This document shows, piece after piece, positions 19,616 to 32,000 of a stretch of DNA of 32,000 nt (position 1 is the stretch's first letter; every line of letters begins with the position of its first letter). The stretch is from Megasphaera elsdenii DSM 20460. GTDB lineage: Bacteria; Bacillota; Negativicutes; Veillonellales; Megasphaeraceae. Location of the stretch: contig NZ_CP027570.1 in NCBI RefSeq assembly GCF_003010495.1, positions 630,001 through 662,000 of the forward strand. The letters run 5' to 3'. The notes below the pieces were generated by a model that had not been told where the DNA came from, made no database searches, and was given only the letters and a program-made list of their open reading frames with translations. The position numbers were made by a program, and so were the translations under genes.

Positions 19616-20728
19616 CTAATACAACTTCTTATAAATGCCGTACACCTTATCGTAATCGAGGGGCACAAAACTGTGCTTCATGAGACGCTGCTGATTTTCG
19701 ATGACCGACTTAGCAAATTCCGGCAATTCTTCTTCTTTGACGCCGTATTCATGGAGCGCTTTTTTGGGCAGGATGACGTTGAGCAGTTTTTCCAGTTCTG
19801 CATAGACATTTTCCGGTTCGCAGCCCAGGATATCGGCAATGAAGCGATTCAACTTAGCGATTTCCCCATCTGATTTGATGGACATGTAGCAGTTCATGAC
19901 GCCTGTGAACATGGCGTAGTTCGATTCCCCATGAGGAACATGATATTTCGCCCCTAAGGGATAGCTCATGGCGTGAACCGCAGCGCAACCCGGGACGCTG
20001 AAGGCGATGCCGGCCCAGTTGCTGGCCAGGAGAAAATCTTTCATGAGCGGAATACGGGCTTCCGGACCGTGGTCGCGGATCTGCAAGTACCCTTTGAGGA
20101 TGAGTTCGATGGCGTTATAACTGAAGACGCGGAAGCTGGCGCTGGAATCCGGAGACAAGGCCGATTCGACAGCGTGAACCAGGGCGTCGATGGAGCTGGT
20201 CGCAAAGACCTTGAACGGCAGGGTCTTCAAGAGCTGCGAAATGAGGACAGCCTTGTCGGCATACAGGGCGTTGTCGGCAAGGCCCTTCTTCGTATTGCGG
20301 CTGACCAGGGCCATGACCGATACATTGGTGACTTCGCTGCCCGTCCCGCATGTCGTCGGGATGAGGATGAGTTCCTTTTCTTTTTCCACAGGAATCTTGC
20401 CATCGAATAAATCGAGGACCGGGCTGACCTGCTTCAAGACGAACAACTTGCACAAGTCCATGACCGTGCCGCCGCCGATACCGATGATGCGCTTCACATC
20501 TTTCGGCATATCTTTATAAATGGCTTCGGCCATTTCATCAGACGGTTCACCCATACCATACTTTTCCTGGAACAAGACGTGGCACGTAAGGCCTAAGTCC
20601 TTAAAATTCGGGTCGAAGATGTACTGATTGGTAATAATCAAATCATCCGCCCCAACCTGCAAATCTTCCACAAACTCCCGGCATGTATCATAAGAGTAAA
20701 TCGTCGGTTTCAACTGTAATTCAATCAT
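19616..20728 (-). CDS. 4hbD: NAD-dependent 4-hydroxybutyrate dehydrogenase (iron-containing alcohol dehydrogenase family)
   Basis: 370 aa. LFQEKYGMGEPSDEM, GIGGGTVMD, PTTCGTGSEVTN, YHVPHGE and the C-terminal YKKLY closely parallel my memory of Clostridium kluyveri 4HbD. Confidence 0.8.
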   Translation of the reverse strand: MIELQLKPTIYSYDTCREFVEDLQVGADDLIITNQYIFDPNFKDLGLTCHVLFQEKYGMGEPSDEMAEAIYKDMPKDVKRIIGIGGGTVMDLCKLFVLKQVSPVLDLFDGKIPVEKEKELILIPTTCGTGSEVTNVSVMALVSRNTKKGLADNALYADKAVLISQLLKTLPFKVFATSSIDALVHAVESALSPDSSASFRVFSYNAIELILKGYLQIRDHGPEARIPLMKDFLLASNWAGIAFSVPGCAAVHAMSYPLGAKYHVPHGESNYAMFTGVMNCYMSIKSDGEIAKLNRFIADILGCEPENVYAELEKLLNVILPKKALHEYGVKEEELPEFAKSVIENQQRLMKHSFVPLDYDKVYGIYKKLY

Positions 20729-20793: not shown

Positions 20794-20823
20794 TTGCAAG
20801 AGCCCGGTTGACCGTGATATAAT
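20794..20823 (+). promoter_or_regulatory. candidate promoter of tRNA-Sec
   Basis: TTGCAA (20794..20799), an 18-nt spacer, then TATAAT (20818..20823), about 12 nt before the mature tRNA 5' end. The palindromic TTGCAA could also act as a -35 for the divergent 4hbD. Confidence 0.4.
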
Positions 20824-20834
20824 AAACCTGTCCT

Positions 20835-20931
20835 GGGGGAGGATGGGTTCTGGTGTTCCCTCTGGTCTTCAAAACCAGCATGAGGGGTTAAGAGCTTCTC
20901 AGGTGGGTTCGATTCCCACACTTCCCCGCCA
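20835..20931 (+). tRNA. selC: tRNA-Sec (anticodon UCA)
   Basis: The anticodon stem CTGGT/ACCAG encloses the loop CT-TCA-AA. The D-arm has a 6-nt/4-nt/6-nt layout (GGGTTC TGGT GTTCCC). A long extra arm (TGAGGGG/CTTCTCA, 7 bp) is present, as is the T-arm GTGGG-TTCGATT-CCCAC. The acceptor GGGGGAG pairs with CTTCCCC, followed by discriminator G and an encoded CCA. The 5' end is accurate to within 1 nt. Confidence 0.8.
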
Positions 20932-20967
20932 AAAAAAGGCGCTGTCACACGAAGACAGCGCCTTTTT
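20931..20967 (+). terminator. rho-independent terminator after tRNA-Sec
   Basis: A7, then GGCGCTGTC (20938..20946), ACACGAA, GACAGCGCC (20954..20962), then T5. Confidence 0.8.
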
Positions 20968-21042
20968 GAGTTTTAAGTTTGAAGTTGAAAGTTTGATGTG
21001 GATGGGAAAAAATTTAAAAGCCATTGTCTCAAACATCATACA

Positions 21043-21234
21043 TCAAACATTCTTACTTGATTTTTCATCCGTCTTGTCTGCTATCTCCTTCGTTTCATCG
21101 GTATTGACAGCTTCCTTGAATTCACGGAGACTCTTGCCCAAAGCCCGGCCGATCGTCGGCAGTTTCCCCGGTCCAAACACAATTAGGGCAATAATTAAAA
21201 TGAGCAGTAATTCCGGTGCACCTAAGCCAAACAT
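21043..21234 (-). CDS. tatA: twin-arginine translocase subunit TatA/E
   Basis: [42 protein letters not shown] is a canonical TatA. I prefer the second ATG (21234), which is 7 nt after GGGGGA. Confidence 0.85.
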
Positions 21235-21276
21235 CGTCATTCCCCCTATAATACCATTACTTCCTTACATGACTTC

Positions 21277-21305
21277 ATGATACCCTTATCCAGGCAGGCT
21301 GTCAA
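21277..21305 (-). promoter_or_regulatory. candidate sigma-70 promoter of tatA
   Basis: Minus strand reads TTGACA (21305..21300), a 17-nt spacer, then TATCAT (21282..21277). Confidence 0.45.
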
Positions 21306-21396
21306 TGAAGGCGCGCGGGTAGGAAAATTATGTCGCCAAAATATAATATATCTATCGTCCGTCCATAAAAAACGAAATTGTATACAGGAAATATAT

Positions 21397-21447
21397 AAAA
21401 GATAAGCTGTCTTACAAAGGGTATCTTCATAAGACAGCTTATCTTTT
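21397..21447. terminator. long perfect hairpin terminator at the end of the low-GC minus-strand operon
   Basis: AAAAGATAAGCTGTCTTA (21397..21414) pairs with TAAGACAGCTTATCTTTT (21430..21447). It begins 2 nt after the TAA of the UGA-containing ORF, and both sides are A/T-rich. Confidence 0.65.
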
Positions 21448-21448
21448 G

Positions 21449-21787
21449 TTATTCAAAACCTTTTTCACGCGTTATGGCCATTCCCTGAGCTCCTTCTATT
21501 GTCAGCCATTGATGGAATAAAAATCGCTTCACATGGATAACAATAGATTGATATCCTTGTTGAATCTGTAATTTAGGATGATACCAAATAATAATATCAT
21601 CAACTAGCTCAAAAGGATATTCCATTTGTTGACCCGGCTTACCTAAGCCGATTTCTGGAACGTAACTGCCCCAGATTAAATCACCTTTTCAACAACTCCC
21701 TCCAGATGGTTCAAAGGCCAAGGTAACGATGACATTTCCACCATGAGACTGAATATATTGTTTTGCTTGTTCCGTGATAGTAAACAT
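21449..21787 (-). CDS. candidate selenoprotein, 112 codons with in-frame UGA at codon 33 (C-U motif); possibly a 'CC/Se motif family (seleno)protein'
   Basis: ATG 21787..21785 lies 7 nt after GAGGG and 15 nt after the GldA-like stop. Translation gives MFTITEQAKQYIQSHGGNVIVTLAFEPSGGSC, then TGA (21691..21689), then KGDLIWGSYVPEIGLGKPGQQMEYPFELVDDIIIWYHPKLQIQQGYQSIVIHVKRFLFHQWLTIEGAQGMAITREKGFE, then TAA (21451..21449). That is 79 stop-free codons after the TGA in roughly 40% GC DNA, followed by a hairpin. tRNA-Sec is about 0.75 kb away. Both halves are under 60 aa from an ATG, so the ORF track misses it. Confidence 0.55.
21654..21675 (-). other. candidate bacterial SECIS hairpin
   Basis: On the mRNA, UCUGGGGC-AGUUAC-GUUCCAGA forms an 8-bp stem (two G-U pairs) with a 6-nt loop containing GU. 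It starts 13 nt after the UGA, so the apical loop begins about 21 nt downstream. Confidence 0.35.
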
Positions 21788-21802: not shown

Positions 21803-22888
21803 TTATTTTCCTAATGCATCAGCCTTCATAATGGCATCATACACTTCATCTGCTGTAATGTCAGCACGCACATTTTTTGTAAACTGAGTTGGTACAGTAG
21901 CTGCTTCCGCAACCAGACGGATTTCTTCTTCTTTTACATCCTTAATCCCTAAATCAGCTAAGCATGAAGGAAGTCCTACCGATTTTATATAGTGTAATAC
22001 TGTGTCCCACTCATCTTTTGGTGCTTTTTCTAAAATAAGCTGCGCGAGTAATCCAAAAGCAACTTTTTCACCATGGGAAGCTCCGTGGGCCTGTGGGACA
22101 TGGGCAAAACCATCATTGATAGCATGAGCTGCCGCAAGGCCTCCCGACTCAAACCCGACACCACTAAGATAGACGCAGGCTTCAATGACCCGTTCCAAAG
22201 CAGAATTTACCTCCTGTTTTTCAACGGCATTGAGCGCTTCCAGTGAATCATTTAATAAAGTTTTATAACATAATGCAGCCAAGGCTAATGCCGTTGCTGA
22301 ACAAGCTCCACGAGCCATGGTTTTAGCCCCACTACGTTGGCAAGCACGTGCTTCAAAATAGGTAGATAAGGCATCCCCCATACCAGAGACCAAATATTTT
22401 TTAGGCGCTTGAGCGATAATCCCAGTATCGACTAAAACGAGATCCGGATTATGTTTCATCATTAAAGCCTTGATAACGACGCCCTGTTCATTGTAAATAA
22501 CAGCTACACTGCTGCACGGTGCATCATTAGAAGCAATAGTAGGGATAATAATCGTCGGCAAATCACCTAAATTAGTAGCCACGGCTTTAGCCGTATCCAG
22601 AGCTTTACCTCCACCTACGCCAATGATAGCATCACAGCCGTGCTGATAAGCTATATCTTGTGCATCAGCGATTGCCTTTTTAGAACATTCACCTTGAAAT
22701 TCAGCATAAAATACGGATTTATTCGCACTATTCAGAGCCTTGTCAATGCGTTCACCAATTCTTCGCTTATTATTAGGTGACAGCAAGACTAAAAAGCTAT
22801 TGCCCATTTTCTTAACATACTTCCCTAATTTATCCAACTCTCCATTGCCTTGCACATAATATCCCGGGGCTTTAATTCCAATCGTCAT
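21803..22888 (-). CDS. glycerol dehydrogenase-family (GldA-like) iron/zinc alcohol dehydrogenase
   Basis: 361 aa with GVGGGKALDTAK, PTIASNDAP, GMGDALSTYFEA, AAHAINDGF and HGEKVAFG. The physiological substrate is not deducible. Confidence 0.82.
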   Translation of the reverse strand: MTIGIKAPGYYVQGNGELDKLGKYVKKMGNSFLVLLSPNNKRRIGERIDKALNSANKSVFYAEFQGECSKKAIADAQDIAYQHGCDAIIGVGGGKALDTAKAVATNLGDLPTIIIPTIASNDAPCSSVAVIYNEQGVVIKALMMKHNPDLVLVDTGIIAQAPKKYLVSGMGDALSTYFEARACQRSGAKTMARGACSATALALAALCYKTLLNDSLEALNAVEKQEVNSALERVIEACVYLSGVGFESGGLAAAHAINDGFAHVPQAHGASHGEKVAFGLLAQLILEKAPKDEWDTVLHYIKSVGLPSCLADLGIKDVKEEEIRLVAEAATVPTQFTKNVRADITADEVYDAIMKADALGK

Positions 22889-22907
22889 GACTCAATACCA
22901 CCTTTCT

Positions 22908-22958
22908 AAAAAAACCTCTCCCAGCCGGGGTACTAGGCTACCCTTACCAAGAGAGGTT
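22908..22958 (-). terminator. hairpin plus U-run between the orphan ORF and the GldA-like gene (internal terminator/attenuator)
   Basis: Minus strand has AACCTCTC (22958..22951) pairing with GAGAGGTT (22920..22913). An inner stem (TACCC/GGGTA) and internal loops lie between, then TTTTTTT. The RBS (AAAGGTGG) of the GldA-like gene follows within about 5 nt, and its ATG is about 20 nt after the U-run. Confidence 0.5.
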
Positions 22959-22976
22959 CCACACAATTAGTAATAC

Positions 22977-23591
22977 CTATGAACAGAAATCAGGCATTTC
23001 TTGAAGACGGCAAACCAATGTGTATACATCTTCTCCGACCCGATAAACGAGTAAATCACGATTTTCGTCGGTACAGGGAATATTCGATTCCTCCCCACCA
23101 TTCAGGTTATCATGACAAATACTGTTCAGGTCTTCAAAAATTTCCATGACGCCCTCTTCTCCTTTGCGGACAATCCGTAAAAGATCATTAAAGTAGAGTT
23201 TATCTTCATCATCATATTTAAAAATAGTACACCAACGGCTTAACAACTCTTCTTCATTCATACCCGTTTTTTGAGAAATCAAAGTCTTTTGAGAAGCTAA
23301 TAAAAGCAGCATGCATGATAAATAAGATTTTACGACCAGTGGGATATGATCCTTAACCTTAGCAAAATACCGGCGATGCGACCAATAGCCATCAAAAGTC
23401 AAATCATTCTTTTCCAAAAACTCTTTGATTCCATCATTGGCCGATACCCCGCAAATCATGAAAAAACGCTTCATTGATTCATTCGTCGACTTGCTTTTCG
23501 CATTCATCAAGCATTTTTTTACGAAGAATTCGCAGACCTCTGTCGTATTCGATTTTGTCAGTTTGCGCAATAAATCACCATAATACTGCAT
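22977..23591 (-). CDS. hypothetical protein, 204 aa (no family recognised)
   Basis: A clean ORF with the RBS CCGGAGG 7 nt upstream, on the same strand as and tightly packed within the abfD operon. The sequence MQYYGDLLRKLTKSNTTEVCEFF...LQEMPDFCS has no motif I recognise. Confidence 0.55.
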   Translation of the reverse strand: MQYYGDLLRKLTKSNTTEVCEFFVKKCLMNAKSKSTNESMKRFFMICGVSANDGIKEFLEKNDLTFDGYWSHRRYFAKVKDHIPLVVKSYLSCMLLLLASQKTLISQKTGMNEEELLSRWCTIFKYDDEDKLYFNDLLRIVRKGEEGVMEIFEDLNSICHDNLNGGEESNIPCTDENRDLLVYRVGEDVYTLVCRLQEMPDFCS

Positions 23592-23625
23592 AGCTCAACC
23601 TCCGGTTGTCAAGAGTCTTCTCTGT

Positions 23626-25074
23626 TTATTTTTCTGCGCCTTCCTTTTCAGCATTCAGTTCTTTTAAAGCTGCAACATTGAAAATCGGGTCAGATTTCGT
23701 ATTGTACAGAGACATTTTACGTTTAAAGAAGTTTTTACCAAATACGAGCAGGCAAAGGACAATGCCAACACCCAGAGCCATAGCAGCCCCACGAGATACG
23801 AGGACGCCACCAATAACACCGGCAACGCCGAGGTCATTAAAAGTCTTGGAACGGAGTACACCGACACGAACGGCAACATAGCCTTGAATCAACATGGTCA
23901 ATGCCAAAGCAATCGGCAGAACCGGCTTAACAAAGCTTACGATAGGAGATAACCAATAGCCAGTGAATGTACCTAAACGGAAAGATGCAACGCCGCCAAT
24001 CAGGCTATCCATCGCTTCACGACCATGTTTATAACGTTCACAAATAACGACCTGCATAGCTGCCCATAACGGACCGCACATGGAAAGGTCAGGGCCTAAC
24101 AAGGACATAACCATATTACGGACACCAACAATAACGTTATTTCTGTTAGCATCGAAATGGATATTTTCATCACCATGACGGAATTCACGAGCTTCATCGA
24201 TCAAGGCGTCGGCCTGAATCAATTCACCAAAGAGTACAACGTAAGTTGCAATGACCAACGGAGCAGCTTGGATATAATAAGTCATACCTGGGAAGCCAAT
24301 GCGTTCAGCAAAAGGACTCCACTGGGTAAAGACTTCAATGAAGTGGGGATGAGTAAAGCCCATTTCAATAGTCGGCCAAGGCAATTCGCCCACCAACGGA
24401 GCAATAATGACGGCCAGAACCATCGCCGGCAATAACCCCAAGTCAGAAATAACCTGAAAAACTTTATTTTTATTCATGATACTCTTGAAATGGTTACTAA
24501 AAGAGCAATAAAAAGCAAAGCCTACAGCAATAGCGATGGTAAATGGATATTTATCAAAGTTACCGCCCGTATTGAATACCAGGCGTACAGCAGCAATACC
24601 GGCGCCGATAAGAATCCCGGATTTCAAAGCATCAGGAACTAAATCGACAACGCGTTTAGCAAGACCCGTAGCACCTAATAAGAACGTGAGTAACCCGAGT
24701 TCAAATTCAAAAGCGATAAGTGCATGCATACGTTCTGCTGTATCATTAGGAAATTCTCCCAACCACAGCAATAACAGCGGAATAGCCGGAGTGATCCAGC
24801 CAGGGACAACAGGGTCCCCTAAGTGAGCATGCCAAGTATATAAGAACCCGTTCATGATAACAATAGTAATAGCGATTTCAAAAGGCATCCCTAAATATTC
24901 TTGCAATACTGGGATGATGCCGAGACAAACGGCACATAACAGCAGCCCTTGAACATAATCAGGCCATTCAAAGCGATAATGAATGAAAGGTAAACGCAGG
25001 ACTAAGTTAAATACGTGTAAATTAATCCCCGGTTGTATTTCGCCTTCTTTTCGTTTATAAACAGGACCAAACAT
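23626..25074 (-). CDS. polytopic membrane permease (family unresolved; possibly NCS2/SulP-like)
   Basis: 482 aa with at least 10 hydrophobic helices and a hydrophilic C-terminal tail. The RBS is AGAGGGG. The substrate is unknown; its neighbours suggest a 4-hydroxybutyrate- or GABA-related solute. Confidence 0.7.
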   Translation of the reverse strand: MFGPVYKRKEGEIQPGINLHVFNLVLRLPFIHYRFEWPDYVQGLLLCAVCLGIIPVLQEYLGMPFEIAITIVIMNGFLYTWHAHLGDPVVPGWITPAIPLLLLWLGEFPNDTAERMHALIAFEFELGLLTFLLGATGLAKRVVDLVPDALKSGILIGAGIAAVRLVFNTGGNFDKYPFTIAIAVGFAFYCSFSNHFKSIMNKNKVFQVISDLGLLPAMVLAVIIAPLVGELPWPTIEMGFTHPHFIEVFTQWSPFAERIGFPGMTYYIQAAPLVIATYVVLFGELIQADALIDEAREFRHGDENIHFDANRNNVIVGVRNMVMSLLGPDLSMCGPLWAAMQVVICERYKHGREAMDSLIGGVASFRLGTFTGYWLSPIVSFVKPVLPIALALTMLIQGYVAVRVGVLRSKTFNDLGVAGVIGGVLVSRGAAMALGVGIVLCLLVFGKNFFKRKMSLYNTKSDPIFNVAALKELNAEKEGAEK

Positions 25075-25215: not shown

Positions 25216-26520
25216 TTATCCTTCAAACTTACAATGGAAGCGTTTTTCAAATTCTGCAATCAATCCTTCTCTAAAATCAGGATGGGCAATCTTAATGAGA
25301 GCAATAGCACGCTGCCGCAAAGTACGTCCTTTAAGAGGAGCGATACCAAATTCCGTAATAATATAGTCTACATCATTGCGGGAGGTCGTAACAGCAGCCC
25401 CTTCATCTAAGAGCGGCACAATCTTAGAAATCTTACCATGACCAGCAGTCGAAGGCATAGCAATAATGGCTTTACCACCCTTTGCACGAGATGCACCACG
25501 AACGAAGTCAACCTGACCGCCGACGCCGCTGAATTGTTTATAGCCAATCATTTCGGCATTGACCTGTCCCATCAAATCGACTTGCATAGCCGAGTTGATA
25601 GAGATGATATTGTCAATTTTAGCTACGACAAAGGGATCATTAGTGTAATCGACACGTTCCATTAATACATCGGGATTGTTATTTACAAAATCATACAGTT
25701 TCTTTGTCCCCATAAGGAAGCAAGAGACAAATTTCCCCTGGTCAATCGTCTTTTTCTTGTTCGTGATAACGCCTTTACGAGCCAAGTCGACAACGCCATC
25801 AGAGAACATTTCGGAATGAATCCCTAAATCCTTTTTATCTCCGAGGAAGGACAAGACAGCATCCGGAATAGCACCGATACCAAGCTGCAGCGTATCACCA
25901 TCATGAATCAGTGATGCTACATATTCCCCAATTTTATGTTCCGTTTCCCCAATTTTAGGCGGTTGCAATTCAATAAGGGGTTCATCTTTTTCGACGATAT
26001 AATCGATATCTTTTAAATTAATGCCATTCCCATAGGTATAGGGCATATTTTTGTTAATCTGTGCAATAACCAGCTTGGCAGCTTCTGCAGCCGGCTGTGT
26101 ATAGTCAACAGAAACCCCATAAGAGCAAATGCCATTTTCATCGGGTTCACTGAGCTGTAAAAAAGCGACGTCAACAGGTAAGGTACCATCTGTAAAGAGC
26201 TTGGGAATTTCATGGAAGAAGCACGGTGTATAATCTCCACGGCCTTCTTCTACGGCTTTGCGAGTTGAGCCACCTACGAACAGGGCATTATGGCGAAAAT
26301 GTTTTTCCATCCCCGGTTGGCAATAAGGAGCTTTCCCCATAGCAACCATATGAACAATTTCAACATTTTCAAGGCGATCTGCCTGGCGAACTAATTCATC
26401 TGTCAAAGCCTGCGCTTCACCACAAGCATGGGTGAAAACAATACGATTGCCGGATTGGACATGGCTTACAGCTTCTTCAACAGATACAATTTTTTCTGCA
26501 TATTCTTTTCTCCAATCCAT
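25216..26520 (-). CDS. abfT: 4-hydroxybutyrate CoA-transferase (acetyl-CoA hydrolase/transferase family)
   Basis: About 434 aa. MDWRKEYAEKIVSVEEAVSHVQSGNRIV, GEAQ, and GGQVDFVRGA near the C-terminal domain fit the Cat2/AbfT type, and it is adjacent to abfD. I trimmed the start to the ATG at 26520. Confidence 0.82.
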   Translation of the reverse strand: MDWRKEYAEKIVSVEEAVSHVQSGNRIVFTHACGEAQALTDELVRQADRLENVEIVHMVAMGKAPYCQPGMEKHFRHNALFVGGSTRKAVEEGRGDYTPCFFHEIPKLFTDGTLPVDVAFLQLSEPDENGICSYGVSVDYTQPAAEAAKLVIAQINKNMPYTYGNGINLKDIDYIVEKDEPLIELQPPKIGETEHKIGEYVASLIHDGDTLQLGIGAIPDAVLSFLGDKKDLGIHSEMFSDGVVDLARKGVITNKKKTIDQGKFVSCFLMGTKKLYDFVNNNPDVLMERVDYTNDPFVVAKIDNIISINSAMQVDLMGQVNAEMIGYKQFSGVGGQVDFVRGASRAKGGKAIIAMPSTAGHGKISKIVPLLDEGAAVTTSRNDVDYIITEFGIAPLKGRTLRQRAIALIKIAHPDFREGLIAEFEKRFHCKFEG

Positions 26521-26543
26521 TACACACACCTACTTTCGTATAA

Positions 26544-26598
26544 CTGACTGACGGCCTGCAACGGAGGAGGAGCAGCCTAGTTGCAGGCATCAGTCAAA
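26544..26598 (-). other. intercistronic stem-loop between abfD and abfT
   Basis: TGACTGACGGCCTGCAAC pairs with GTTGCAGGCATCAGTCA in an imperfect stem of about 15 bp with a 17-nt loop. No U-run follows on the minus strand, so it is probably not a strong terminator. Confidence 0.4.
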
Positions 26599-26679
26599 AT
26601 CACGTCTATATACTCATACTATATTTACTCTGCTCTATTTCATTACGTGAAGGATAGTGATTCCCAGTGTAATATCAAC

Positions 26680-28131
26680 TTATTCTTCAATGTGTGCAAT
26701 AGCTTTAGCCAAGGCTTTCTTCATACGCAAGTTGCCCTGACGGGAAATCATGATACGCTGTGCCTGCGGCGAACCTGCACCGTGCATGGATTCTGTACGA
26801 TAACCAACAGCTGCCGTGCCGAGGCTGAGGTTTTCGATGAGGCGTAAGATTTTGAGACGATTTTCTGTCGATACATTATTAACGCCGCGGAGGTATTTAT
26901 CAATGTACGGCCCAATCTTCGGATCACGGAGGTCTTTTTCAGACGGTGCTGTAACCATCAAGCCACCAGCAATATCTTCGGCTAAACGGACGATTTCATA
27001 GGGGAAGCGCGTAACATTCTGTTTGCAGACGTTTGCCAGGAGCAAATCGATGAGATAGTTGCCTGATTCCGTTTTCGTACCCAATGCCGAGCAAGCAATA
27101 CCGCAAGCATACAGGGTTTCGTTGAGGTGCTGCATTTCAATGATTTTATCTTTAATATGGGAAGCTTTCGGACAGCCATTATAGTCAGCAGCAACCGCAG
27201 CAGCACCGATAAGGACGTCACCTACGCCAACTTTGCAGCCGCCATAGGACTGACGATGATAACCCGCGAAGCGTTCAACGAGGACGCCGGCAAATTCATA
27301 TTCTCCATTCAGATAAATATTTTCGTTCGGGATGAAGACATTATCAAAGATAACCAGAGCTTCCGTACCACCAAATTCAGGGTTGCCCGTATCCATCGGA
27401 GCGCCTTCCATTTTACGAGTATCGCAAGACTGACGGCCAACAATCATGAAAATACCTTCAGCATCTGTCGAGCAGGAGAAGCAGACTGCGTAGTCTTTGT
27501 CATCTTCGCCCATAGAGATGGTCGGCATGACGATGACTTCATGAGAGTTAATGAAACCAGTTTGGTGAGCTTTTGCCCCACGGACTACGATGCCGTCCGG
27601 ACGACGTTCTACAACATGGAGATAGAGGTCCGGATCTGCCTGTGCATGCGGAGCCAAACCACGGTCACCTTTCGGGTCTGTCATAGCGCCGTCAACGGTA
27701 AGGTCTTCCATCTGTACCCGTTTGAGGAATTTCATGAAGTTTTCATGGTATTTCGTGCCATATTTTTTATCCGTATCATACGTCGTGGAGAATACCGCAT
27801 TAAAAGCATCCATGCCAACGCAACGCTGGAAGCAGGAAGCCGTTTTCTGACCACACAGACGCTGCATTTTTACTTTATTCATCAAGTCCGTCGTGCTCTG
27901 ATGAATATGGGTGAAGCGGTTAACACGTTCGCCAGTGTACGGAGAGATTGCTGTCATCAGGTCCTGATATTCAGGCTGCTGAGCCAGATCATACGTCATG
28001 CGGACGGAGTTCATGGACGGACGGAGAATCGGATCATCTGCCGGACACGGAACTTTTTTACCAAACATGTAGACTTGTAAATTTTTCTTTCTCATGCTTT
28101 CGATGTACTGTTCGCCTGTCATTAATGCCAT
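26680..28131 (-). CDS. abfD: 4-hydroxybutyryl-CoA dehydratase / vinylacetyl-CoA delta-isomerase
   Basis: 483 aa. MALMTGEQYIESMRKKNLQVYMFGKKV... parallels the N-terminus of Clostridium aminobutyricum AbfD as I recall it. The size and the abfT neighbour both fit. Confidence 0.88.
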   Translation of the reverse strand: MALMTGEQYIESMRKKNLQVYMFGKKVPCPADDPILRPSMNSVRMTYDLAQQPEYQDLMTAISPYTGERVNRFTHIHQSTTDLMNKVKMQRLCGQKTASCFQRCVGMDAFNAVFSTTYDTDKKYGTKYHENFMKFLKRVQMEDLTVDGAMTDPKGDRGLAPHAQADPDLYLHVVERRPDGIVVRGAKAHQTGFINSHEVIVMPTISMGEDDKDYAVCFSCSTDAEGIFMIVGRQSCDTRKMEGAPMDTGNPEFGGTEALVIFDNVFIPNENIYLNGEYEFAGVLVERFAGYHRQSYGGCKVGVGDVLIGAAAVAADYNGCPKASHIKDKIIEMQHLNETLYACGIACSALGTKTESGNYLIDLLLANVCKQNVTRFPYEIVRLAEDIAGGLMVTAPSEKDLRDPKIGPYIDKYLRGVNNVSTENRLKILRLIENLSLGTAAVGYRTESMHGAGSPQAQRIMISRQGNLRMKKALAKAIAHIEE

Positions 28132-28211
28132 AATGAATCATCCTTTCTTCTTATCATATAATAAAGTTTTGACAGTAGGTTCACACGTTAGTGTGTTTTG
28201 CCTATAGTAAG

Positions 28212-28227
28212 AGCAAAAATCATGCCA
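28212..28227 (-). promoter_or_regulatory. candidate sigma-54 (-24/-12) promoter of the abfD operon
   Basis: Minus strand reads CTTGGCATG-ATTT-TTGCT-C, with TGGCAT at 28227..28222 and TTGCT at 28216..28212. Compared with the consensus TGGCACG-N4-TTGCW it has one mismatch. The predicted start is about 70 nt before ATG 28131. Confidence 0.5.
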
Positions 28228-28409
28228 AGTAGTGCCTTTAATATTTTTATTTTAATTTCTTCCGTGAAAAGCATAGCAACTATCCCATCTTTGAAACTTA
28301 AAAAAATTTTCTCCCTTATTTTGTGCTATATTTCACGTTATTTTTGTTATGTTTATAACGTTTTCCCGTTCCATTTTTGGCTCAAATATTTTGGTTTTTC
28401 GTTCCATAT

Positions 28410-28435
28410 ATGAAACAAATTACCATTTGTTTCAT
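28410..28435. promoter_or_regulatory. perfect 10-bp inverted repeat (candidate activator/operator site)
   Basis: ATGAAACAAA (28410..28419), TTACCA, TTTGTTTCAT (28426..28435). It lies about 185 bp upstream of the minus-strand -24 box and about 220 bp upstream of the plus-strand one. Confidence 0.4.
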
Positions 28436-28656
28436 TTTTAAAACAGTATACATCCTTATATTCGGGGATATTTTCTTTATTCCATCTCGTTTCTTGATAA
28501 AAAATATTCGTAAATCAATATATTTAAAAATATTATTTCATTTATCCTTTTACCCCAACTCTTTATATTTAAAACGTTTATGTAGCACTTTCGTCTTTCA
28601 TCACAGTTTAATTTGTGAATAACAGAACAAATAAATTCAGGCATTTCTTCCAATTT

Positions 28657-28672
28657 TGGCACGATAATTTCA
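28657..28672 (+). promoter_or_regulatory. weaker sigma-54-like -24/-12 element before the Nfu-like gene
   Basis: TGGCACG (28657..28663), ATAA, TTTCA (28668..28672). The -24 box is perfect, but the -12 box has TTTC instead of TTGC. It sits 41 nt before ATG 28713. A sigma-70 -10 (TATAAT, 28676..28681) is an alternative reading. Confidence 0.3.
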
Positions 28673-28712
28673 TATATATAATTAACTACTATAAGTAAGG
28701 ATGTGAATTACC

Positions 28713-29012
28713 ATGACTCTATCAATTCGAGAACAAATCGAAAAAGTCTTAGAAAAAGATGTCCGCCCTTCGCTTGCAGAACATCAAGGCGACGTCGTCA
28801 TTGTCGATTATGCTGATCACATTTTACGAATCCGTTTAACCGGTCAATGCAGCGGCTGTCCTTCAGCACAGCTGACGACAGAAGAATTAATCAGTGCAAA
28901 AGTCCGCGAAGCCATCGAAGACGTCCATGATGTCATTCTCGTCAGTGGCGTCAGCGATACACTGATTGCACAGGCTAAAGCCATTTTAAGAGAACGCCAT
29001 ACACAGAGGTGA
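28713..29012 (+). CDS. NifU C-terminal-domain (Nfu-like) Fe-S scaffold/carrier protein
   Basis: 99 aa. VRPSLAEHQGDV...RLTGQCSGCPSAQLT is the Nfu/NifU_C CxxC motif. Confidence 0.8.
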   Translation: MTLSIREQIEKVLEKDVRPSLAEHQGDVVIVDYADHILRIRLTGQCSGCPSAQLTTEELISAKVREAIEDVHDVILVSGVSDTLIAQAKAILRERHTQR

Positions 29013-29016
29013 ATCT

Positions 29017-29748
29017 ATGAAAATAGGGATAAAATACTGCGGCGGCTGTAATCCACGCTATGATCGCAGCCATGAAGTAGACAAACTAAAAAAAAGATTC
29101 CCCCAACACACGTTTACCTATGAAATAGAAAATACAGTTTGCGACATCTGCCTCCTCGTCTGTGGCTGCATGACGGCCTGTGCCGAGGAAACAGGGCTTG
29201 CCGCTCGAAAATTCAAAAAACTTTGTACACCACAACAATTTGCGGCTTTCGCCAAAGAATTAAAAGACGCACCTCAAGAAATGCCTGATACGAAGAAGTC
29301 TATTTACTTGGGAGCTGTTGCTACCATGGAAAAGACTTTCACAGAAGAAGATATCCAACAATTTGCAAAGCTAACCGGTGATTATGGAAAACTACATACA
29401 GATGCCGCATTTGCTGCAAAATATGGATTTGGTCGTCCTGTCGTCCACGGCATTTTGACAGGAAGTTTACTATCTTCGATTATGGGCACCACTTTGCCAG
29501 GAGCCGGAACCATTTTAATGGATGAACAATTGACATTTACAGCCCCGGTTTATGCAGGTGACACCATCACAGCTTCTATAAAACTAGTCCATGTCGAAGA
29601 AAAAAAACGCTGGTACATCGGAAAATTCACAGGCACCTGCAAAAAGTCAGATGGAACAGTAGCTGTAGAAGGTACGATTCACCAATTAATGATGAAGACC
29701 TTATTCACATACTGTAGAAACATTCAAAATAATCAATCATTAGAATAG
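29017..29748 (+). CDS. fusion protein: Cys-rich CGGC-like N-terminal module plus MaoC-like (R)-hydratase/dehydratase hotdog domain
   Basis: The first 56 residues hold 8 Cys (KYCGGCNPRYDR...VCDICLLVCGCMTAC). The C-terminal part has FAKLTGDYGKLHTDAAFAAKYGFGRPVVHGIL, the typical MaoC signature. Confidence 0.72.
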   Translation: MKIGIKYCGGCNPRYDRSHEVDKLKKRFPQHTFTYEIENTVCDICLLVCGCMTACAEETGLAARKFKKLCTPQQFAAFAKELKDAPQEMPDTKKSIYLGAVATMEKTFTEEDIQQFAKLTGDYGKLHTDAAFAAKYGFGRPVVHGILTGSLLSSIMGTTLPGAGTILMDEQLTFTAPVYAGDTITASIKLVHVEEKKRWYIGKFTGTCKKSDGTVAVEGTIHQLMMKTLFTYCRNIQNNQSLE

Positions 29749-29758
29749 GAGTATTATC

Positions 29759-29995
29759 ATGACAAATTTAGAAAAATACGACAACCTTTTTATGAACAGC
29801 TTCAAATTGAAAAAAGAAGATCTTCCCGGTTTAAAATATCGCAGCATAAAGTTGTGGGATTCAATGGGCCATATGAATTTGATGGAAGAAATGGAAGATA
29901 CTTTCGATATCTCTATTGATACCCCTGATGTCTTAGCATTCAGCTCTTATGAAAAAGGAATGGATATTTTGCGGAAATACGGAGTTGATATCTAA
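29759..29995 (+). CDS. acyl/peptidyl carrier protein-like (phosphopantetheine attachment)
   Basis: 78 aa. LWDSMGHMNLMEEMEDTF fits the D-S-(L/M) attachment motif and the helix II context. The RBS is AGGAG. Confidence 0.68.
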   Translation: MTNLEKYDNLFMNSFKLKKEDLPGLKYRSIKLWDSMGHMNLMEEMEDTFDISIDTPDVLAFSSYEKGMDILRKYGVDI

Positions 29996-29996
29996 T

Positions 29997-30665
29997 ATGC
30001 CTGTGGATATACACCTTCACTGCATCACAGATCCACTGACCCATAGTAATTGTTACATTCTCTCAGAAAAATCCCGCACACTTATCATTGATCCAAACTG
30101 TTACCAAGAAATCCATTCCTATCTTACGACTCATCAACTTGTTCCCGAGTATATCATTTTGACGCATGAGCACTGCGATCACATCGCAGCGCTCAATGAT
30201 ATGCGTAAGTATTATAGCTTAAAAGTACTTTGTAGTGCGGCATGCAGTCAAGGGATTCAAAGCACGACACTAAATATGACCCGTATCATGGAGACCTATT
30301 TATACTTTAAGAGCCAAGGGGAGCTCCAGGTCTCCTATCCCCCTTTTACTTGCCAAGCTGCCGATATCATTTTTGACAATACTTACTTAGCTACTTGGCA
30401 AAACCATACTATCTTTTGTATTACAGCACCCGGCCATACTCCAGGCAGCACCTGCATCATCATAGATGAAAAGATGTTATTTTCTGGCGACTACTTTATT
30501 CCTGGCGAAGAAGTCATCACCCGTCTTCCTGGTGGAGACGAAGAAACTTATGAGCAACAAGGAAAAGCCACTTTGCGTTGTCTGCCAACACCGATATTAA
30601 CTTATCCGGGCCATGGTGAACCATTTATATTGACACAGGAGGTGAAAAAAAAATATGGACTATAG
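29997..30665 (+). CDS. MBL-fold metallo-hydrolase
   Basis: Has the THEHCDH (HxHxDH) motif, a later PGHTPGS and a terminal GHG. I set the start at ATG 29997 (MPVDIHL), immediately after the carrier-protein stop. Confidence 0.78.
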   Translation: MPVDIHLHCITDPLTHSNCYILSEKSRTLIIDPNCYQEIHSYLTTHQLVPEYIILTHEHCDHIAALNDMRKYYSLKVLCSAACSQGIQSTTLNMTRIMETYLYFKSQGELQVSYPPFTCQAADIIFDNTYLATWQNHTIFCITAPGHTPGSTCIIIDEKMLFSGDYFIPGEEVITRLPGGDEETYEQQGKATLRCLPTPILTYPGHGEPFILTQEVKKKYGL

Positions 30666-31722
30666 TAATTGGTTGATGCAACCGCCTTACCATTGGACAC
30701 AGGACGAAAAAGAAGCCCATTACGTGCCTCTCTTATTCGAATTGACTTCTCACCACTGTCATTGCTGTCAACCTTATGGTCAAGCGATACAAACGCTGTA
30801 TGAGAAAAATAAAAGATATGACTCTTCCAACCAAATCCCAATGCTTCCTATTTCTTTATTTAAAACAGAAGAACTAAAAAGCATCCCTGATTCCGAAATT
30901 TTTAAAGTAATCACTTCGTCGGGAACATCGGGAGTGGCATCTCATTTATACCTCGACGCCTTTAACGCACAAAATCAACAATTGGCCTTATATAACATCG
31001 TGAAAGACTTTATTGGCTCCTCGCGACTCCCCATGTTGATTGTCGATACGCCGGATATATTAAAAAATCGAGACGCCTTTAATGCCCGCGGGGCAGCGGT
31101 CTTGGGCTTTTCCATCTTTGCTAAACGAAAATATTACGCATTAAAACCAGATCTATCCGTTGATTTGGAAAGCATCCGCACATTCATTCAGACATATCGT
31201 AATCAACCGGTCTTAATCTTTGGCTTTACTTTTATGATTTGGCAGTATCTTTGTGAAGCGCTGGCAAACTATCCAGGTTTAATTGATTTATCCAATGCAA
31301 TTTTAATCCACGGCGGAGGCTGGAAAAAAATGCAGGACCGCGCGGTTTCACCTCACGAGTATAAGAAACGGCTATATGAACAGTTCCAGATCCATAAAGT
31401 CCACAATTATTATGGCATGGCTGAACAAACAGGATGTATTTATATGGAATGTGAACAAGGCCATCTTCATGCCAGCATATTCTCCGATATTATCATTCGC
31501 AATCCAGAAAACTTTTCAGTCTGTCCCGTAGGAGAAACGGGCATTGTCCAAGTATTGACTCCACTGGCCACGTCCTATCCGGGTCATTCTATCCTGACAG
31601 AAGATATGGGCACCCTGTTAGGAATCGATGACTGCCCTTGTGGCCGTTTAGGAAAATATTTCCGCATTGATGGCCGCATGGCAAAAGCCGAAATAAGGGG
31701 GTGTAGTGATGCGCACAACTAA
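30655..31722 (+). CDS. LuxE-like acyl-protein synthetase (adenylate-forming)
   Basis: 355 aa. The N-terminus is followed by SSGTSG, and the length fits the LuxE/PaaK-like fold. The RBS is GGAGGTGA. It overlaps the MBL gene by 11 nt. Confidence 0.7.
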   Translation: MDYSNWLMQPPYHWTQDEKEAHYVPLLFELTSHHCHCCQPYGQAIQTLYEKNKRYDSSNQIPMLPISLFKTEELKSIPDSEIFKVITSSGTSGVASHLYLDAFNAQNQQLALYNIVKDFIGSSRLPMLIVDTPDILKNRDAFNARGAAVLGFSIFAKRKYYALKPDLSVDLESIRTFIQTYRNQPVLIFGFTFMIWQYLCEALANYPGLIDLSNAILIHGGGWKKMQDRAVSPHEYKKRLYEQFQIHKVHNYYGMAEQTGCIYMECEQGHLHASIFSDIIIRNPENFSVCPVGETGIVQVLTPLATSYPGHSILTEDMGTLLGIDDCPCGRLGKYFRIDGRMAKAEIRGCSDAHN

Positions 31723-32000
31723 AAGCTTCACGATACTTGCCGGTTCGATTCCAGAAAAAATTATGCCCCAACAACCTTTTTCTCCGCTAACCTTGCAGTT
31801 TTGCCAAGATTTCGCGCACCAATTACAACAACGGCCTATCGCCAAAGAAGAGCCTGACTGGGCCGCTTTCAGTTTTTGGCTGCGCCCGCGAAAATTAGAA
31901 AGTTATAGAAAACTACTCACTTTTCCTGAAAAAAGATTAGGCCGAGGATTGACCTTTCATATAGCGCCAGCGAATATGCCTACCATGTTTTTATATAGTT
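31709..32000 (+). CDS. LuxC-like acyl-CoA/acyl-protein reductase (N-terminal part; continues beyond the window)
   Basis: My translation from ATG 31709 is MRTTKSFTILAGSIPEKIMPQQPFSPLTLQFCQDFAHQLQQRPIAKEEPDWAAFSFWLRPRKLESYRKLLTFPEKRLGRGLTFHIAPANMPTMFLYS. It stays open to position 32000. HIAPANMP...F.YS resembles the LuxC family. It overlaps the LuxE-like gene by 14 nt. Confidence 0.6.
   Translation, partial: MRTTKSFTILAGSIPEKIMPQQPFSPLTLQFCQDFAHQLQQRPIAKEEPDWAAFSFWLRPRKLESYRKLLTFPEKRLGRGLTFHIAPANMPTMFLYS

What the first reader, a model, noticed from the sequence alone, without database searches (positions are those of the whole stretch)
20835..20931. tRNA-Sec (selC) sits at the junction between high-GC chromosome and the low-GC block
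The 97-nt gene has a UCA anticodon in a canonical 7-nt loop, a 6/4/6 D-arm, a 7-bp extra arm, discriminator G and an encoded CCA. In other bacteria selC is a classical integration site for genomic islands. Here the composition drops from about 55% to about 40% GC within roughly 400 bp downstream, after tatA. The first gene of the low-GC block appears to need this very tRNA. The window contains no integrase and no direct repeat of the tRNA 3' end, so this may be an old or degraded island, or one whose integrase lies beyond 32 kb.
Basis: partly seen in the sequence, partly recalled or inferred. Interest (0 to 1): 0.65.

Follow-up and report, generated by a model that had tools for sequence, protein, structure and literature searches.

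The report
Real selC beside an integrase-less variable block
The selenocysteine tRNA gene of Megasphaera elsdenii is genuine and does sit next to a 17-kb low-GC block that some strains lack, but the block was not inserted into the tRNA by an integrase, so this is an ordinary gene-swapping hotspot.

Summary
ARAGORN and Rfam both call tRNA-Sec at 20835..20931(+). GC falls from about 0.55 to about 0.40 and stays low to the window end. The first low-GC gene is a CC/Se-family selenoprotein with an in-frame UGA.

The window is M. elsdenii DSM 20460. The low-GC block is about 16.9 kb (window about 21327 to the equivalent of about 38250). It encodes the selenoprotein, GldA, a permease, AbfT/AbfD, NifU, MaoC, an ACP-like protein, LuxE/LuxC, an acyl-AMP ligase, its own sigma-54 with an activator, and an FMN dehydrogenase.

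Conspecific contigs carry at least three other cargoes between the same flanks, so the block is accessory. It is not a classical selC island:
- The junction lies 395 bp from the tRNA, upstream of the promoter of the conserved tatA gene.
- The complete block has no integrase or transposase.
- There is no repeat of the tRNA 3' end.

The same block lies near tatA/selC in at least two other Megasphaera lineages, at core-like divergence (72-79% against about 80%). tatA alleles are only about 85% identical between strains whose flanks are 98% identical.

Best reading: selC-tatA anchors a hotspot where cargo is swapped by homologous recombination and deletion. This is a new member of a known kind, of modest interest.

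The parts
19616..20728 (-). Fe-dependent alcohol dehydrogenase, the core left flank. It is divergent from selC and may be a 4-hydroxybutyrate dehydrogenase.
   Evidence: Pfam Fe-ADH and ADH_Fe_C. It is collinear with selC in 8 Megasphaera lineages. A paralogue sits inside the abfD/abfT/gabT cluster in L035 and L040.
20794..20823 (+). Sigma-70-like promoter for selC (TTGCAA-18-TATAAT, with TG before the -10 box).
   Evidence: Consensus scan. The -10 box and its spacing to the tRNA 5' end are conserved in 9 lineages.
20835..20931 (+). tRNA-Sec gene (selC): anticodon UCA, CCA encoded.
   Evidence: ARAGORN. Rfam RF01852 at 71.7 bits. No broken pairs in 9 lineages.
20932..20967 (.). Bidirectional intrinsic terminator shared by selC and the convergent tatA (A7-GGCGCTGTC-ACACGAA-GACAGCGCC-T5).
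   Evidence: Read from the sequence. Between-strain and between-species similarity ends at or within a few nt of this hairpin.
21043..21240 (-). tatA, here an orphan with no tatC beside it. It is a conserved gene lying between selC and the variable block.
   Evidence: NCBIfam and Pfam TatA. At least three alleles are about 85% identical in strains whose flanks are 98% identical. tatC lies between tatA and selC in L031 and L107. No tatC remnant is found in the window.
21277..21305 (-). tatA promoter (TTGACA-17-TATCAT).
   Evidence: Match of 11/12 in the consensus scan. Conserved in all cargo types.
21312..21327 (.). Left junction of the variable block. Similarity to strains with other cargo ends here.
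   Evidence: blastn end points at 21312, 21318, 21326 and 21327 for L014, L015, L008 and L017. Alignment.
21399..21445 (-). Intrinsic terminator of the CC/Se gene.
   Evidence: 20-bp stem followed by a T-run.
21452..21787 (-). CC/Se-motif family selenoprotein gene with UGA at 21689-21691. It is the first gene of the block.
   Evidence: NCBIfam NF041239 at 43.7 bits against a cutoff of 40, spanning both sides of the UGA. Pfam PF28096 on homologues. Cys sits at this position in the Megasphaera sp. DISK 18 homologue. The UGA and the downstream frame are conserved in 21 loci and in a 90%-identical lineage.
21654..21675 (-). SECIS-like hairpin 13 nt after the UGA (8-bp stem, loop AGUUAC).
   Evidence: MFE -22.9 kcal/mol for the 70-nt stretch, z = -4.06. 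A similar hairpin partly persists in the Cys homologue, so this is supportive only.
21803..25074 (-). gldA (21803-22888), a 204-aa protein of unknown family (22977-23591) and a 482-aa permease (23626-25074).
   Evidence: NCBIfam glycerol dehydrogenase at 475 bits. No family found for the 204-aa protein. Weak permease hits only for the 482-aa protein.
25216..28131 (-). abfT-like 4-hydroxybutyrate CoA-transferase (25216-26529) and abfD-like 4-hydroxybutyryl-CoA dehydratase / vinylacetyl-CoA isomerase (26680-28131).
   Evidence: PDB 3eh7 and 3gk7, E 1e-167. PDB 1u8v, E 3e-234.
28212..28227 (-). Sigma-54-type -24/-12 element 81 nt upstream of abfD.
   Evidence: TGGCATGATTTTTGCT. Same position in 5 lineages within an otherwise poorly conserved spacer of 25-30% GC.
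28657..28672 (+). Sigma-54-type -24/-12 element 41 nt upstream of the nifU-like gene.
   Evidence: TGGCACGATAATTTCA. Conserved in 5 lineages.
28713..32000 (+). Plus-strand operon: NifU-like, AF_0334/MaoC, ACP-like 78 aa, MBL-fold, LuxE, and the start of LuxC at 31709. Beyond the window it continues with an AMP-binding ligase, RpoN, a PAS/sigma-54 activator and an FMN dehydrogenase. It ends at the window equivalent of about 38250.
   Evidence: Pfam. Gene list of L024, which is HE576794.1. Right junction at L024 17564-17633.

Best explanation
selC here is a normal, functional, core tRNA-Sec gene with its own promoter and terminator. Its 3' side, together with the small tatA unit, is the fixed edge of a recombination hotspot in Megasphaera.

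In M. elsdenii DSM 20460 the hotspot holds a block of about 16.9 kb at about 41% GC. The block is a self-contained metabolic module with these parts:
- a CC/Se selenoprotein;
- glycerol dehydrogenase and a permease;
- the 4-hydroxybutyrate enzymes AbfT and AbfD;
- a NifU/MaoC/ACP/LuxE/LuxC/acyl-AMP-ligase set;
- its own sigma-54 factor, an enhancer-binding activator and two sigma-54 promoters.

The block encodes no integrase or transposase and has no att-like repeats. I infer that it is gained, lost and replaced by homologous recombination in the conserved flanks and by deletion. The flanks are selC/tatA/ADH on one side and SDR/SDH-alpha on the other. Site-specific integration into the tRNA is not involved.

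selC is next to the block for two reasons. tRNA genes are highly conserved anchors for recombination. This neighbourhood is also an old selenium-gene neighbourhood in the genus.

Shown: the identity of the tRNA, the extent and content of the block, its variable presence, the junction positions, and the absence of integrase and repeats. Inferred: recombination as the mechanism of exchange, and Sec insertion in the CC/Se protein.
For: **The tRNA.**

**Source and extent.** The window matches HE576794.1 at 99.995% identity. Block limits are window 21312-21327 and L024 17564-17633. GC is 0.36-0.48 throughout.

**Variable cargo.** Contigs that are 97-99% identical in the left flank carry three other cargoes between tatA and the SDR gene:
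- L008 and L014: HAD, PALP, Na/Ala symporter, phosphodiesterase, DeoR and MFS genes.
- L015: an autotransporter and a UPF0236 gene.
- L017: only a UPF0236 remnant.

The window-like type makes up about 14 of 19 and 21 of 22 of the contigs read in the two look-ups.

**No mobility machinery.**
- No recombinase domain in any block gene.
- No tRNA-end repeat or flanking repeat.
- No integrase among 45 ORFs from the selC flanks of 6 other lineages.

**Signs of recombination.**
- The tatA segment is about 85% identical where the flanks are 98% identical.
- The L015 cargo plus tatA segment is 94.8% identical to sister lineage L028. The adjoining core is 89.5% identical.
- Types B and C keep the last 57 and 25 nt of the block's FMN-dehydrogenase gene.

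**Same block near selC elsewhere.**
- It lies 6.5 kb from selC, via tatA-tatC, in L107 and L109.
- It lies next to the 3HCDH gene that abuts selC in L108 and L037.
- Identity to M. elsdenii is 72-79%, against about 80% for core DNA.
- A CC/Se-to-tatA linkage is also seen in an M. intestinihominis-like lineage.

**Cross-species synteny.** Synteny ends within 0-6 nt of the tRNA CCA end.
Against: No recombination event was observed directly. The history is inferred from a few dozen contigs, most of them metagenomic.

The left end points of two independent alternative cargoes fall within about 15 bp of each other (21312-21327). That is tighter than random deletion or recombination end points would predict. 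It could hint at a specific site, or at selection to keep the tatA promoter.

The block keeps about 41-44% GC in hosts of 45-55% GC, despite core-like divergence. Neither simple vertical descent nor a single old transfer explains this easily.

Only about 10 kb on each side of selC was seen in the other species.
Confidence: 0.68

Rival explanations
1. This is a classical selC-targeted genomic island. An integrase-bearing element once integrated into the 3' end of selC and has since lost its integrase and att repeats. tatA would be part of that element.
For: The block has four island-like properties:
- It has a tRNA next to it.
- It has deviant GC.
- It is 17 kb long.
- Its presence is variable.

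In L015, L027 and four other species, similarity ends within a few nt of the tRNA CCA or its terminator. General island features are listed in PMC2704930.
Against: - No integrase, even a degraded one, lies in the whole block or in 10 kb of right flank.
- There is no repeat of the tRNA end.
- tatA is present with or without the block, and with tatC in L031 and L107, so it is resident DNA rather than cargo.
- The junction lies upstream of the tatA promoter.
- The block is as diverged between species as core DNA.
Confidence: 0.08
2. The block is ancestral Megasphaera DNA inherited vertically beside selC/tatA. Strains and species without it have simply lost or overwritten it. Low GC is an intrinsic property of the cluster and not a sign of transfer.
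For: - Core-like or greater divergence of the block between M. elsdenii, L035, L107 and L108.
- The same neighbourhood in three lineages.
- Types B and C keep remnants of the block's last gene.
- The block is the majority state in M. elsdenii.
- Block GC is about 0.41-0.44 in every host.
Against: - The block is absent from this site in the closest relatives: M. intestinihominis CLA-AA-H81, WILCCON 0056, UMGS1114 and the MSK.21.52 lineage.
- It has a different location and partners in UMGS111 (L035).
- The modules differ widely in divergence: AbfD is 97% identical at the protein level but LuxC only 70%.
- tatA alleles are discordant.
- Unameliorated GC over that time span is hard to explain without repeated exchange.
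Confidence: 0.2
3. The adjacency is a coincidence. selC merely happens to lie near a compositional boundary and plays no role as an anchor.
For: The junction is 395 bp from the tRNA, with a separate gene in between. The GC decline starts inside the ADH gene for reasons intrinsic to that gene.
Against: It is the only tRNA in 32 kb, and it lies within 0.4 kb of the boundary. In five other lineages collinearity stops within 0-6 nt of the tRNA 3' end. selC is again at the edge of the block-containing segment in L107, where the 5' flank is different.
Confidence: 0.04

Closest known systems
selC-integrated pathogenicity and genomic islands of Enterobacteria (LEE, SHI-2 and others)
   Same: A block of deviant GC, larger than 10 kb and strain-variable, lies on the 3' side of the tRNA-Sec gene (PMC6174562 and PMC2704930).
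   Different: No P4-like integrase lies next to the tRNA, and there is no duplicated tRNA 3' end. The junction is 395 bp away, beyond a resident gene. The cargo is metabolic. Exchange appears to rely on flanking homology.
Integrase-less regions of genomic plasticity, or hotspots, flanked by core genes
   Same: Identical core flanks carry different cargo in conspecific strains. There is no mobility gene. Flank alleles are mosaic and more diverged. Nested remnants of the previous cargo remain.
   Different: The anchor here is specifically selC-tatA, and the same module recurs at this neighbourhood across species. This comparison rests on general knowledge of bacterial genome hotspots. It was not tested against a curated family.
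CC/Se motif family (seleno)protein (NCBIfam NF041239, Pfam PF28096)
   Same: The score is above the curated cutoff. U sits at the position of the second Cys. Cys-form homologues occur in the same genus.
   Different: None of substance. This is a Sec-form member. The family's function is unknown.
4-aminobutyrate / 4-hydroxybutyrate fermentation genes of Clostridium aminobutyricum (abfD, abfT, abfH)
   Same: AbfD (PDB 1u8v, E 3e-234) and AbfT (E 1e-146 to 1e-167) are adjacent. An Fe-ADH lies nearby. GabT is present in the L035 version.
   Different: In M. elsdenii the ADH is separated from abfT by selC, tatA and four other genes. No gabT lies in the block. The cluster is coupled to a LuxC/LuxE/ACP set and its own sigma-54 system.

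Membership tests
tRNA-Sec (Rfam RF01852) | Covariance-model score above the gathering threshold, with a UCA anticodon in a 7-nt loop | tested here: met
   71.7 bits against 47. ARAGORN reports SeC with anticodon tca.
tRNA-Sec (Rfam RF01852) | Bacterial 8/5 acceptor/T-stem geometry, a 6-bp D-stem with a 4-nt loop, and a long extra arm | tested here: met
   - T-stem: 5 bp.
- D-arm: 6/4/6, with two U-U mismatches.
- Extra arm: 7 bp.
- Acceptor: 7 pairs plus a G-A at the eighth position.
- All pairs are kept in 9 lineages.
tRNA-Sec (Rfam RF01852) | Charged with Ser, converted by SelA and delivered by SelB | not testable with these tools
   The positions of selA, selB and selD in M. elsdenii were not determined. 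A SelB gene lies 7 kb from selC in L037.
tRNA-integrated genomic island (GEI/ICE; features as listed in PMC2704930) | 10-200 kb, variable among close relatives, and of deviant composition | tested here: met
   About 16.9 kb at GC 0.41 against 0.55. Four cargo types occur in conspecific contigs.
tRNA-integrated genomic island (GEI/ICE; features as listed in PMC2704930) | Inserted within the 3' end of the tRNA gene | tested here: not met
   The junction is at 21312-21327. That is 381-396 bp beyond the CCA end and upstream of the tatA promoter.
tRNA-integrated genomic island (GEI/ICE; features as listed in PMC2704930) | Flanked by 16-20-bp direct repeats derived from the tRNA end | tested here: not met
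   The last 24 nt of the tRNA have no second copy within 3 mismatches in the window or in L024. No repeat brackets the junctions.
tRNA-integrated genomic island (GEI/ICE; features as listed in PMC2704930) | Encodes an integrase or other mobility functions | tested here: not met
   No recombinase domain in any of the 17 block genes or the flank genes. None in 45 ORFs from the selC flanks of other lineages.
CC/Se motif family (seleno)protein (NF041239 / PF28096) | Profile match above the curated cutoff, spanning the CC/CU motif | tested here: met
   43.7 bits against 40, residues 2-99. Homologues carry PF28096.
CC/Se motif family (seleno)protein (NF041239 / PF28096) | UGA aligned with Cys of homologues, and the frame conserved downstream | tested here: met
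   GGSC-U-KGD here against GGCC-C-KGD in P0002. The 90%-identical lineage keeps the TGA and has 5 conservative changes in the 79 downstream codons.
CC/Se motif family (seleno)protein (NF041239 / PF28096) | Functional bacterial SECIS and actual Sec insertion | tested here: inconclusive
   A hairpin 13 nt after the UGA has z = -4.06. A similar hairpin partly forms in the Cys homologue. Sec incorporation itself cannot be tested here.
Homologous-recombination hotspot (region of genomic plasticity) | The same core flanks carry different cargo in one species, with mosaic flank alleles | tested here: met
Homologous-recombination hotspot (region of genomic plasticity) | Exchange demonstrably occurs by homologous recombination | not testable with these tools
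   Inferred from discordant identity: tatA at 85% against flanks at 98%, and the L015 segment at 94.8% to L028 against 89.5% for the adjoining core.

The most novel reading that the evidence does not exclude
The selC-tatA edge is a genus-wide, integrase-independent docking site. A fixed metabolic module with its own sigma-54 regulon circulates among Megasphaera lineages by flank homology. The module combines 4-hydroxybutyrate and LuxCE-type acyl reduction genes. Its leading gene is a Sec-dependent CC/Se protein, which is kept physically linked to selC and to selenium-handling genes (yedE, tusA, csd, selB). Decoding capacity and client would then travel or persist together.
Probability: 0.2. 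Interest if true: 0.5.

Novelty: new member of a known kind. Interest (0 to 1): 0.3.

Why it matters
The result separates two things that composition-based reading tends to merge. One is a tRNA gene acting as an integrase target. The other is a tRNA gene acting as a conserved edge of a recombination hotspot.

For M. elsdenii, a rumen and gut lactate user and a probiotic candidate, it defines a strain-variable 17-kb module. The module encodes 4-hydroxybutyrate enzymes, a LuxC/LuxE acyl-reduction set and what may be a private sigma-54 regulon. These could affect butyrate-related metabolism and differ between strains.

It also adds a well-supported Sec-form member to the uncharacterised CC/Se family. 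That gene sits in a neighbourhood rich in selenium-handling genes.

Tried and rejected
**1. Repeat of the tRNA 3' end.** I searched for it with up to 3 mismatches, and for any direct or inverted repeat bracketing the block, in the window and in L024. Nothing was found.

**2. Integrase search.**
- Pfam and NCBIfam on the window ORFs, plus the precomputed Pfam annotation of all block and flank genes.
- A PHROGs scan of 45 ORFs from the selC flanks of six other lineages.

These found only two single transposase hits and a weak 'excisionase' hit. That hit is probably the HTH of a Fic protein. No integrase turned up.

**3. A truly empty site in M. elsdenii.** L017 looked empty, but it holds a UPF0236 transposase remnant shared with L015. 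The real empty arrangement, selC-tatC-tatA-SDH_alpha, is in sister species UMGS1114.

**4. Low GC at the 5' end of the ADH gene as a recombination tract.** The idea was that the tract came from the low-GC ADH paralogue of L035. I rejected it because all orthologues share the same GC profile and identity to L035 is flat along the gene.

**5. Recent transfer from UMGS111-like donors.** I rejected this because block DNA identity is 72-83%, no higher than core identity of about 80%.

**6. The Trp at the Sec position in homologue P0001.** It is a gene-calling artefact. The DNA has TGA.

**7. tatC remnants between selC and tatA.** None were found.

**8. Literature.** Nothing was found on this locus in Megasphaera.

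Full report
**1. Observation**

ARAGORN finds one tRNA in the window, tRNA-SeC (anticodon tca), at exactly 20835..20931 on the + strand. Rfam's tRNA-Sec model matches 20835..20927 at 71.7 bits against a gathering score of 47.

- a 7-nt anticodon loop;
- a 6/4/6 D-arm, two of whose pairs are U-U mismatches;
- a 7-bp extra arm, two of whose pairs are G-U;
- a 5-bp T-stem;
- discriminator G and an encoded CCA.

The eighth acceptor pair is a G-A mismatch. Across nine Megasphaera lineages every substitution in a stem keeps the pair, and none of 29 pairs is broken.

A sigma-70-like promoter (TTGCAA-18-TATAAT) ends 11 nt before the tRNA. A strong bidirectional terminator follows the CCA directly.

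The GC drop is real. At finer scale it starts at about 20.5 kb, inside the 5' end of the neighbouring alcohol dehydrogenase gene, and bottoms out at 0.34-0.40 around 21.3-21.6 kb. The low-GC 5' end of that gene is shared by all its orthologues and is not part of any junction.

**2. What the window is**

The window is 99.995% identical to Megasphaera elsdenii DSM 20460 (HE576794.1, locus L013).

To the left of selC lie core genes:
- sbcCD-like genes;
- a hexokinase;
- thiSGHE;
- a PTS transporter;
- an Fe-alcohol dehydrogenase that is divergent from selC.

To the right lies a convergent 65-aa tatA with its own promoter. The low-GC block follows.

**3. The block**

Walking right with the LuxE protein gave L024, where window position equals L024 position plus 20654. 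Comparison with strains that lack the block sets its limits at window 21312-21327 and L024 17564-17633. The right limit corresponds to a window position of about 38250. The block is therefore about 16.9 kb, with GC of 0.36-0.48 throughout.

Minus-strand genes:
- a CC/Se selenoprotein;
- glycerol dehydrogenase;
- a 204-aa protein of unknown family;
- a 482-aa permease;
- 4-hydroxybutyrate CoA-transferase (PDB 3eh7, E 1e-167);
- 4-hydroxybutyryl-CoA dehydratase / vinylacetyl-CoA isomerase (PDB 1u8v, E 3e-234).

Plus-strand genes:
- NifU-like;
- AF_0334/MaoC;
- a 78-aa ACP-like protein;
- an MBL-fold protein;
- LuxE and LuxC;
- an AMP-binding ligase;
- RpoN;
- a PAS/sigma-54 activator;
- an FMN-dependent dehydrogenase.

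The 580-bp spacer between the two operons has 27% GC. It carries one sigma-54-type -24/-12 element in front of each operon. Both elements are conserved in position in five lineages, although the rest of the spacer is not.

No block gene has a recombinase or transposase domain.

**4. Is it variable?**

Yes. Contigs encoding the identical ADH or TatA protein are 97-99% identical to the window on the left. Between tatA and a conserved SDR gene they carry one of four contents:
- this block, which is the majority (roughly 14 of 19 and 21 of 22 of the contigs read);
- a HAD/PALP/symporter/phosphodiesterase/DeoR/MFS set (L008 and L014);
- an autotransporter plus a UPF0236 transposase (L015);
- only a remnant of that transposase (L017).

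The block is absent from this position in M. intestinihominis, strain WILCCON 0056, UMGS1114 and the MSK.21.52 lineage. UMGS1114 shows the simplest arrangement: ADH, selC, tatC, tatA, SDH-alpha.

**5. Is it a selC-integrated island?**

The defining features listed in the review PMC2704930 were tested one by one.
- Size, composition and variability are met.
- Insertion in the tRNA 3' end is not met. All alternative cargoes diverge from the window at 21312-21327. That is 381-396 bp past the CCA and just upstream of the -35 box of the tatA promoter.
- Direct repeats are not met.
- An integrase is not met. The whole block and about 10 kb of right flank are annotated and contain none. This refutes the suggestion that the integrase lies beyond 32 kb.
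- 45 ORFs from the selC flanks of six other lineages also contain no integrase.

**6. What selC does mark**

Across species, collinearity with M. elsdenii on the ADH side runs up to the tRNA. It ends within 0-6 nt of its CCA end in L027, L031, L034, L036 and L037.

Within M. elsdenii the stretch from the selC terminator to the tatA promoter exists in at least three forms. They are about 85% identical, although the DNA to the left is 98% identical. In L015 the divergence starts right after the tRNA.

The L015 form, cargo edge plus tatA, is 94.8% identical to sister lineage L028. The adjoining core is only 89.5% identical.

Types B and C retain the last 57 and 25 nt of the block's FMN-dehydrogenase gene. 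The block, or at least its right end, was therefore there before those cargoes.

These are the marks of replacement by homologous recombination and deletion between conserved anchors.

**7. The block is old and recurs in the same neighbourhood**

A Cys-form homologue of the selenoprotein (Megasphaera sp. DISK 18, 74% identical) led to contigs with the same gene order, from LuxC through AbfD/AbfT, the permease and GldA to CC/Se.
- In L107 and L109 the block is followed by tusA, yedE, an SBP/ferredoxin/radical-SAM set, a cysteine desulfurase, tatA, tatC and then selC. Glycine-reductase genes lie on the other side of selC.
- In L108 it is followed by tusA, yedE, csd and a run ending in the 3-hydroxyacyl-CoA dehydrogenase gene. 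That gene abuts selC in the 92.8%-identical L037.
- An M. intestinihominis-like lineage has a UGA-containing CC/Se gene about 1 kb from tatA.
- In UMGS111 and UW_MP_MEG1_1 the abfD/abfT and lux parts are joined instead to an MFS transporter, a class-III aminotransferase (GabT-like) and a paralogue of the ADH.

Block DNA identity between M. elsdenii and these lineages is 72-83%, close to the roughly 80% of core DNA. Block GC is 0.41-0.44 in every host. This is therefore not a recent arrival at the M. elsdenii selC.

**8. The selenoprotein**

The ORF at 21452..21787(-) has one in-frame TGA after Cys (GGSC-U-KGD). With U replaced by C it matches NCBIfam NF041239, 'CC/Se motif family (seleno)protein', above its cutoff and across the UGA.
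- The DISK 18 homologue has Cys at that position.
- The gene, including the TGA, is identical in 21 loci.
- A 90%-identical lineage keeps the TGA and shows only five conservative changes in the 79 codons after it. The downstream part is therefore translated.
- A hairpin 13 nt after the UGA is unusually stable (z = -4.06). A similar hairpin partly forms in the Cys homologue, so it is only supportive evidence.

selC is present in strains and species without the block, so it must also serve other clients.

**9. Verdict**

The tRNA is an ordinary, functional selC. The neighbouring block is a real accessory module, but it lacks all the machinery and scars of tRNA-targeted integration.

The best explanation (confidence about 0.68) is a selC-tatA-anchored hotspot where cargo is exchanged by homologous recombination and deletion.

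The rivals are:
- pure vertical descent with losses (about 0.20);
- a fully decayed classical island (about 0.08);
- coincidence (about 0.04).

No paper on this locus was found. This is a new member of a known kind, and interest is modest.

Noticed in passing
window 28131-28713; L024 13681-16581: The block carries its own rpoN and a PAS/sigma-54 enhancer-binding protein. Two sigma-54 -24/-12 boxes face the two divergent operons. Both boxes are conserved in five Megasphaera lineages inside an otherwise unconserved spacer of 25-30% GC. A palindrome, TGAAACAAA-N-TTTGTTTCA, in the spacer (L024 7747-7790) could be the activator site. Whether M. elsdenii has another rpoN is unknown.
   Followed up: partly
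window 21043-21240: tatA stands alone, with no tatC beside it. In UMGS1114 (L031) and the DISK 18-like lineage (L107), tatC lies between tatA and selC. No tatC remnant is left in the window. TatA length varies from 56 to 74 aa between strains at its C-terminal tail.
   Followed up: partly
L036 1018-4850; L037 844-2766; L107 10696-15858: In other Megasphaera species the 3' side of selC holds selenium-handling genes: a yedE-like transporter, tusA, a cysteine desulfurase / selenocysteine-lyase-like gene, and selB. Glycine-reductase genes lie on the 5' side in L107. M. elsdenii has lost these from this position.
   Followed up: partly
L035 7140-11113; L040: In two other Megasphaera lineages abfD-abfT is followed by an MFS transporter, a class-III aminotransferase (GabT-like) and a paralogue of the selC-adjacent ADH. 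Together these form a complete 4-aminobutyrate fermentation set. This suggests that the ADH left of selC in M. elsdenii is the 4-hydroxybutyrate dehydrogenase partner of the block enzymes.
   Followed up: partly
P0001; L111 69-407: A database protein shows Trp at the Sec position, but the DNA has TGA. The gene was apparently called with a code that reads TGA as Trp. In DSM 20460-type contigs, gene callers split the selenoprotein into 32-aa and 58-aa ORFs.
   Followed up: yes
window 20968-21040; L029, L030 and L027 at the equivalent position: The DNA just after the selC terminator consists of short imperfect repeats of about 7 nt, for example GTTTTAA GTTTGAA GTTGAAA GTTTGAT. The repeats differ between lineages. 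A 62-nt stretch that is 79% similar to window 20933-20994 lies about 9.6 kb away in L017, after a ParA-like gene.
   Followed up: no
L011 11233-12438: One M. elsdenii assembly (GCA_024436295.1) has an IS (rve-family transposase, 401 aa) inserted between the ADH and PTS genes, 0.5 kb left of selC.
   Followed up: no
window 22977-23591: A 204-aa protein between gldA and the permease matches no Pfam or NCBIfam family. It is conserved at the same position in the block of other Megasphaera lineages.
   Followed up: no
L024 18654-19937; L014 and L015: The AAA-ATPase-like / PDDEXK_9 gene on the right flank is 553 aa in some strains, 427 aa in DSM 20460, and split into 301 and 101 aa in L017. It appears to be decaying.
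   Followed up: no
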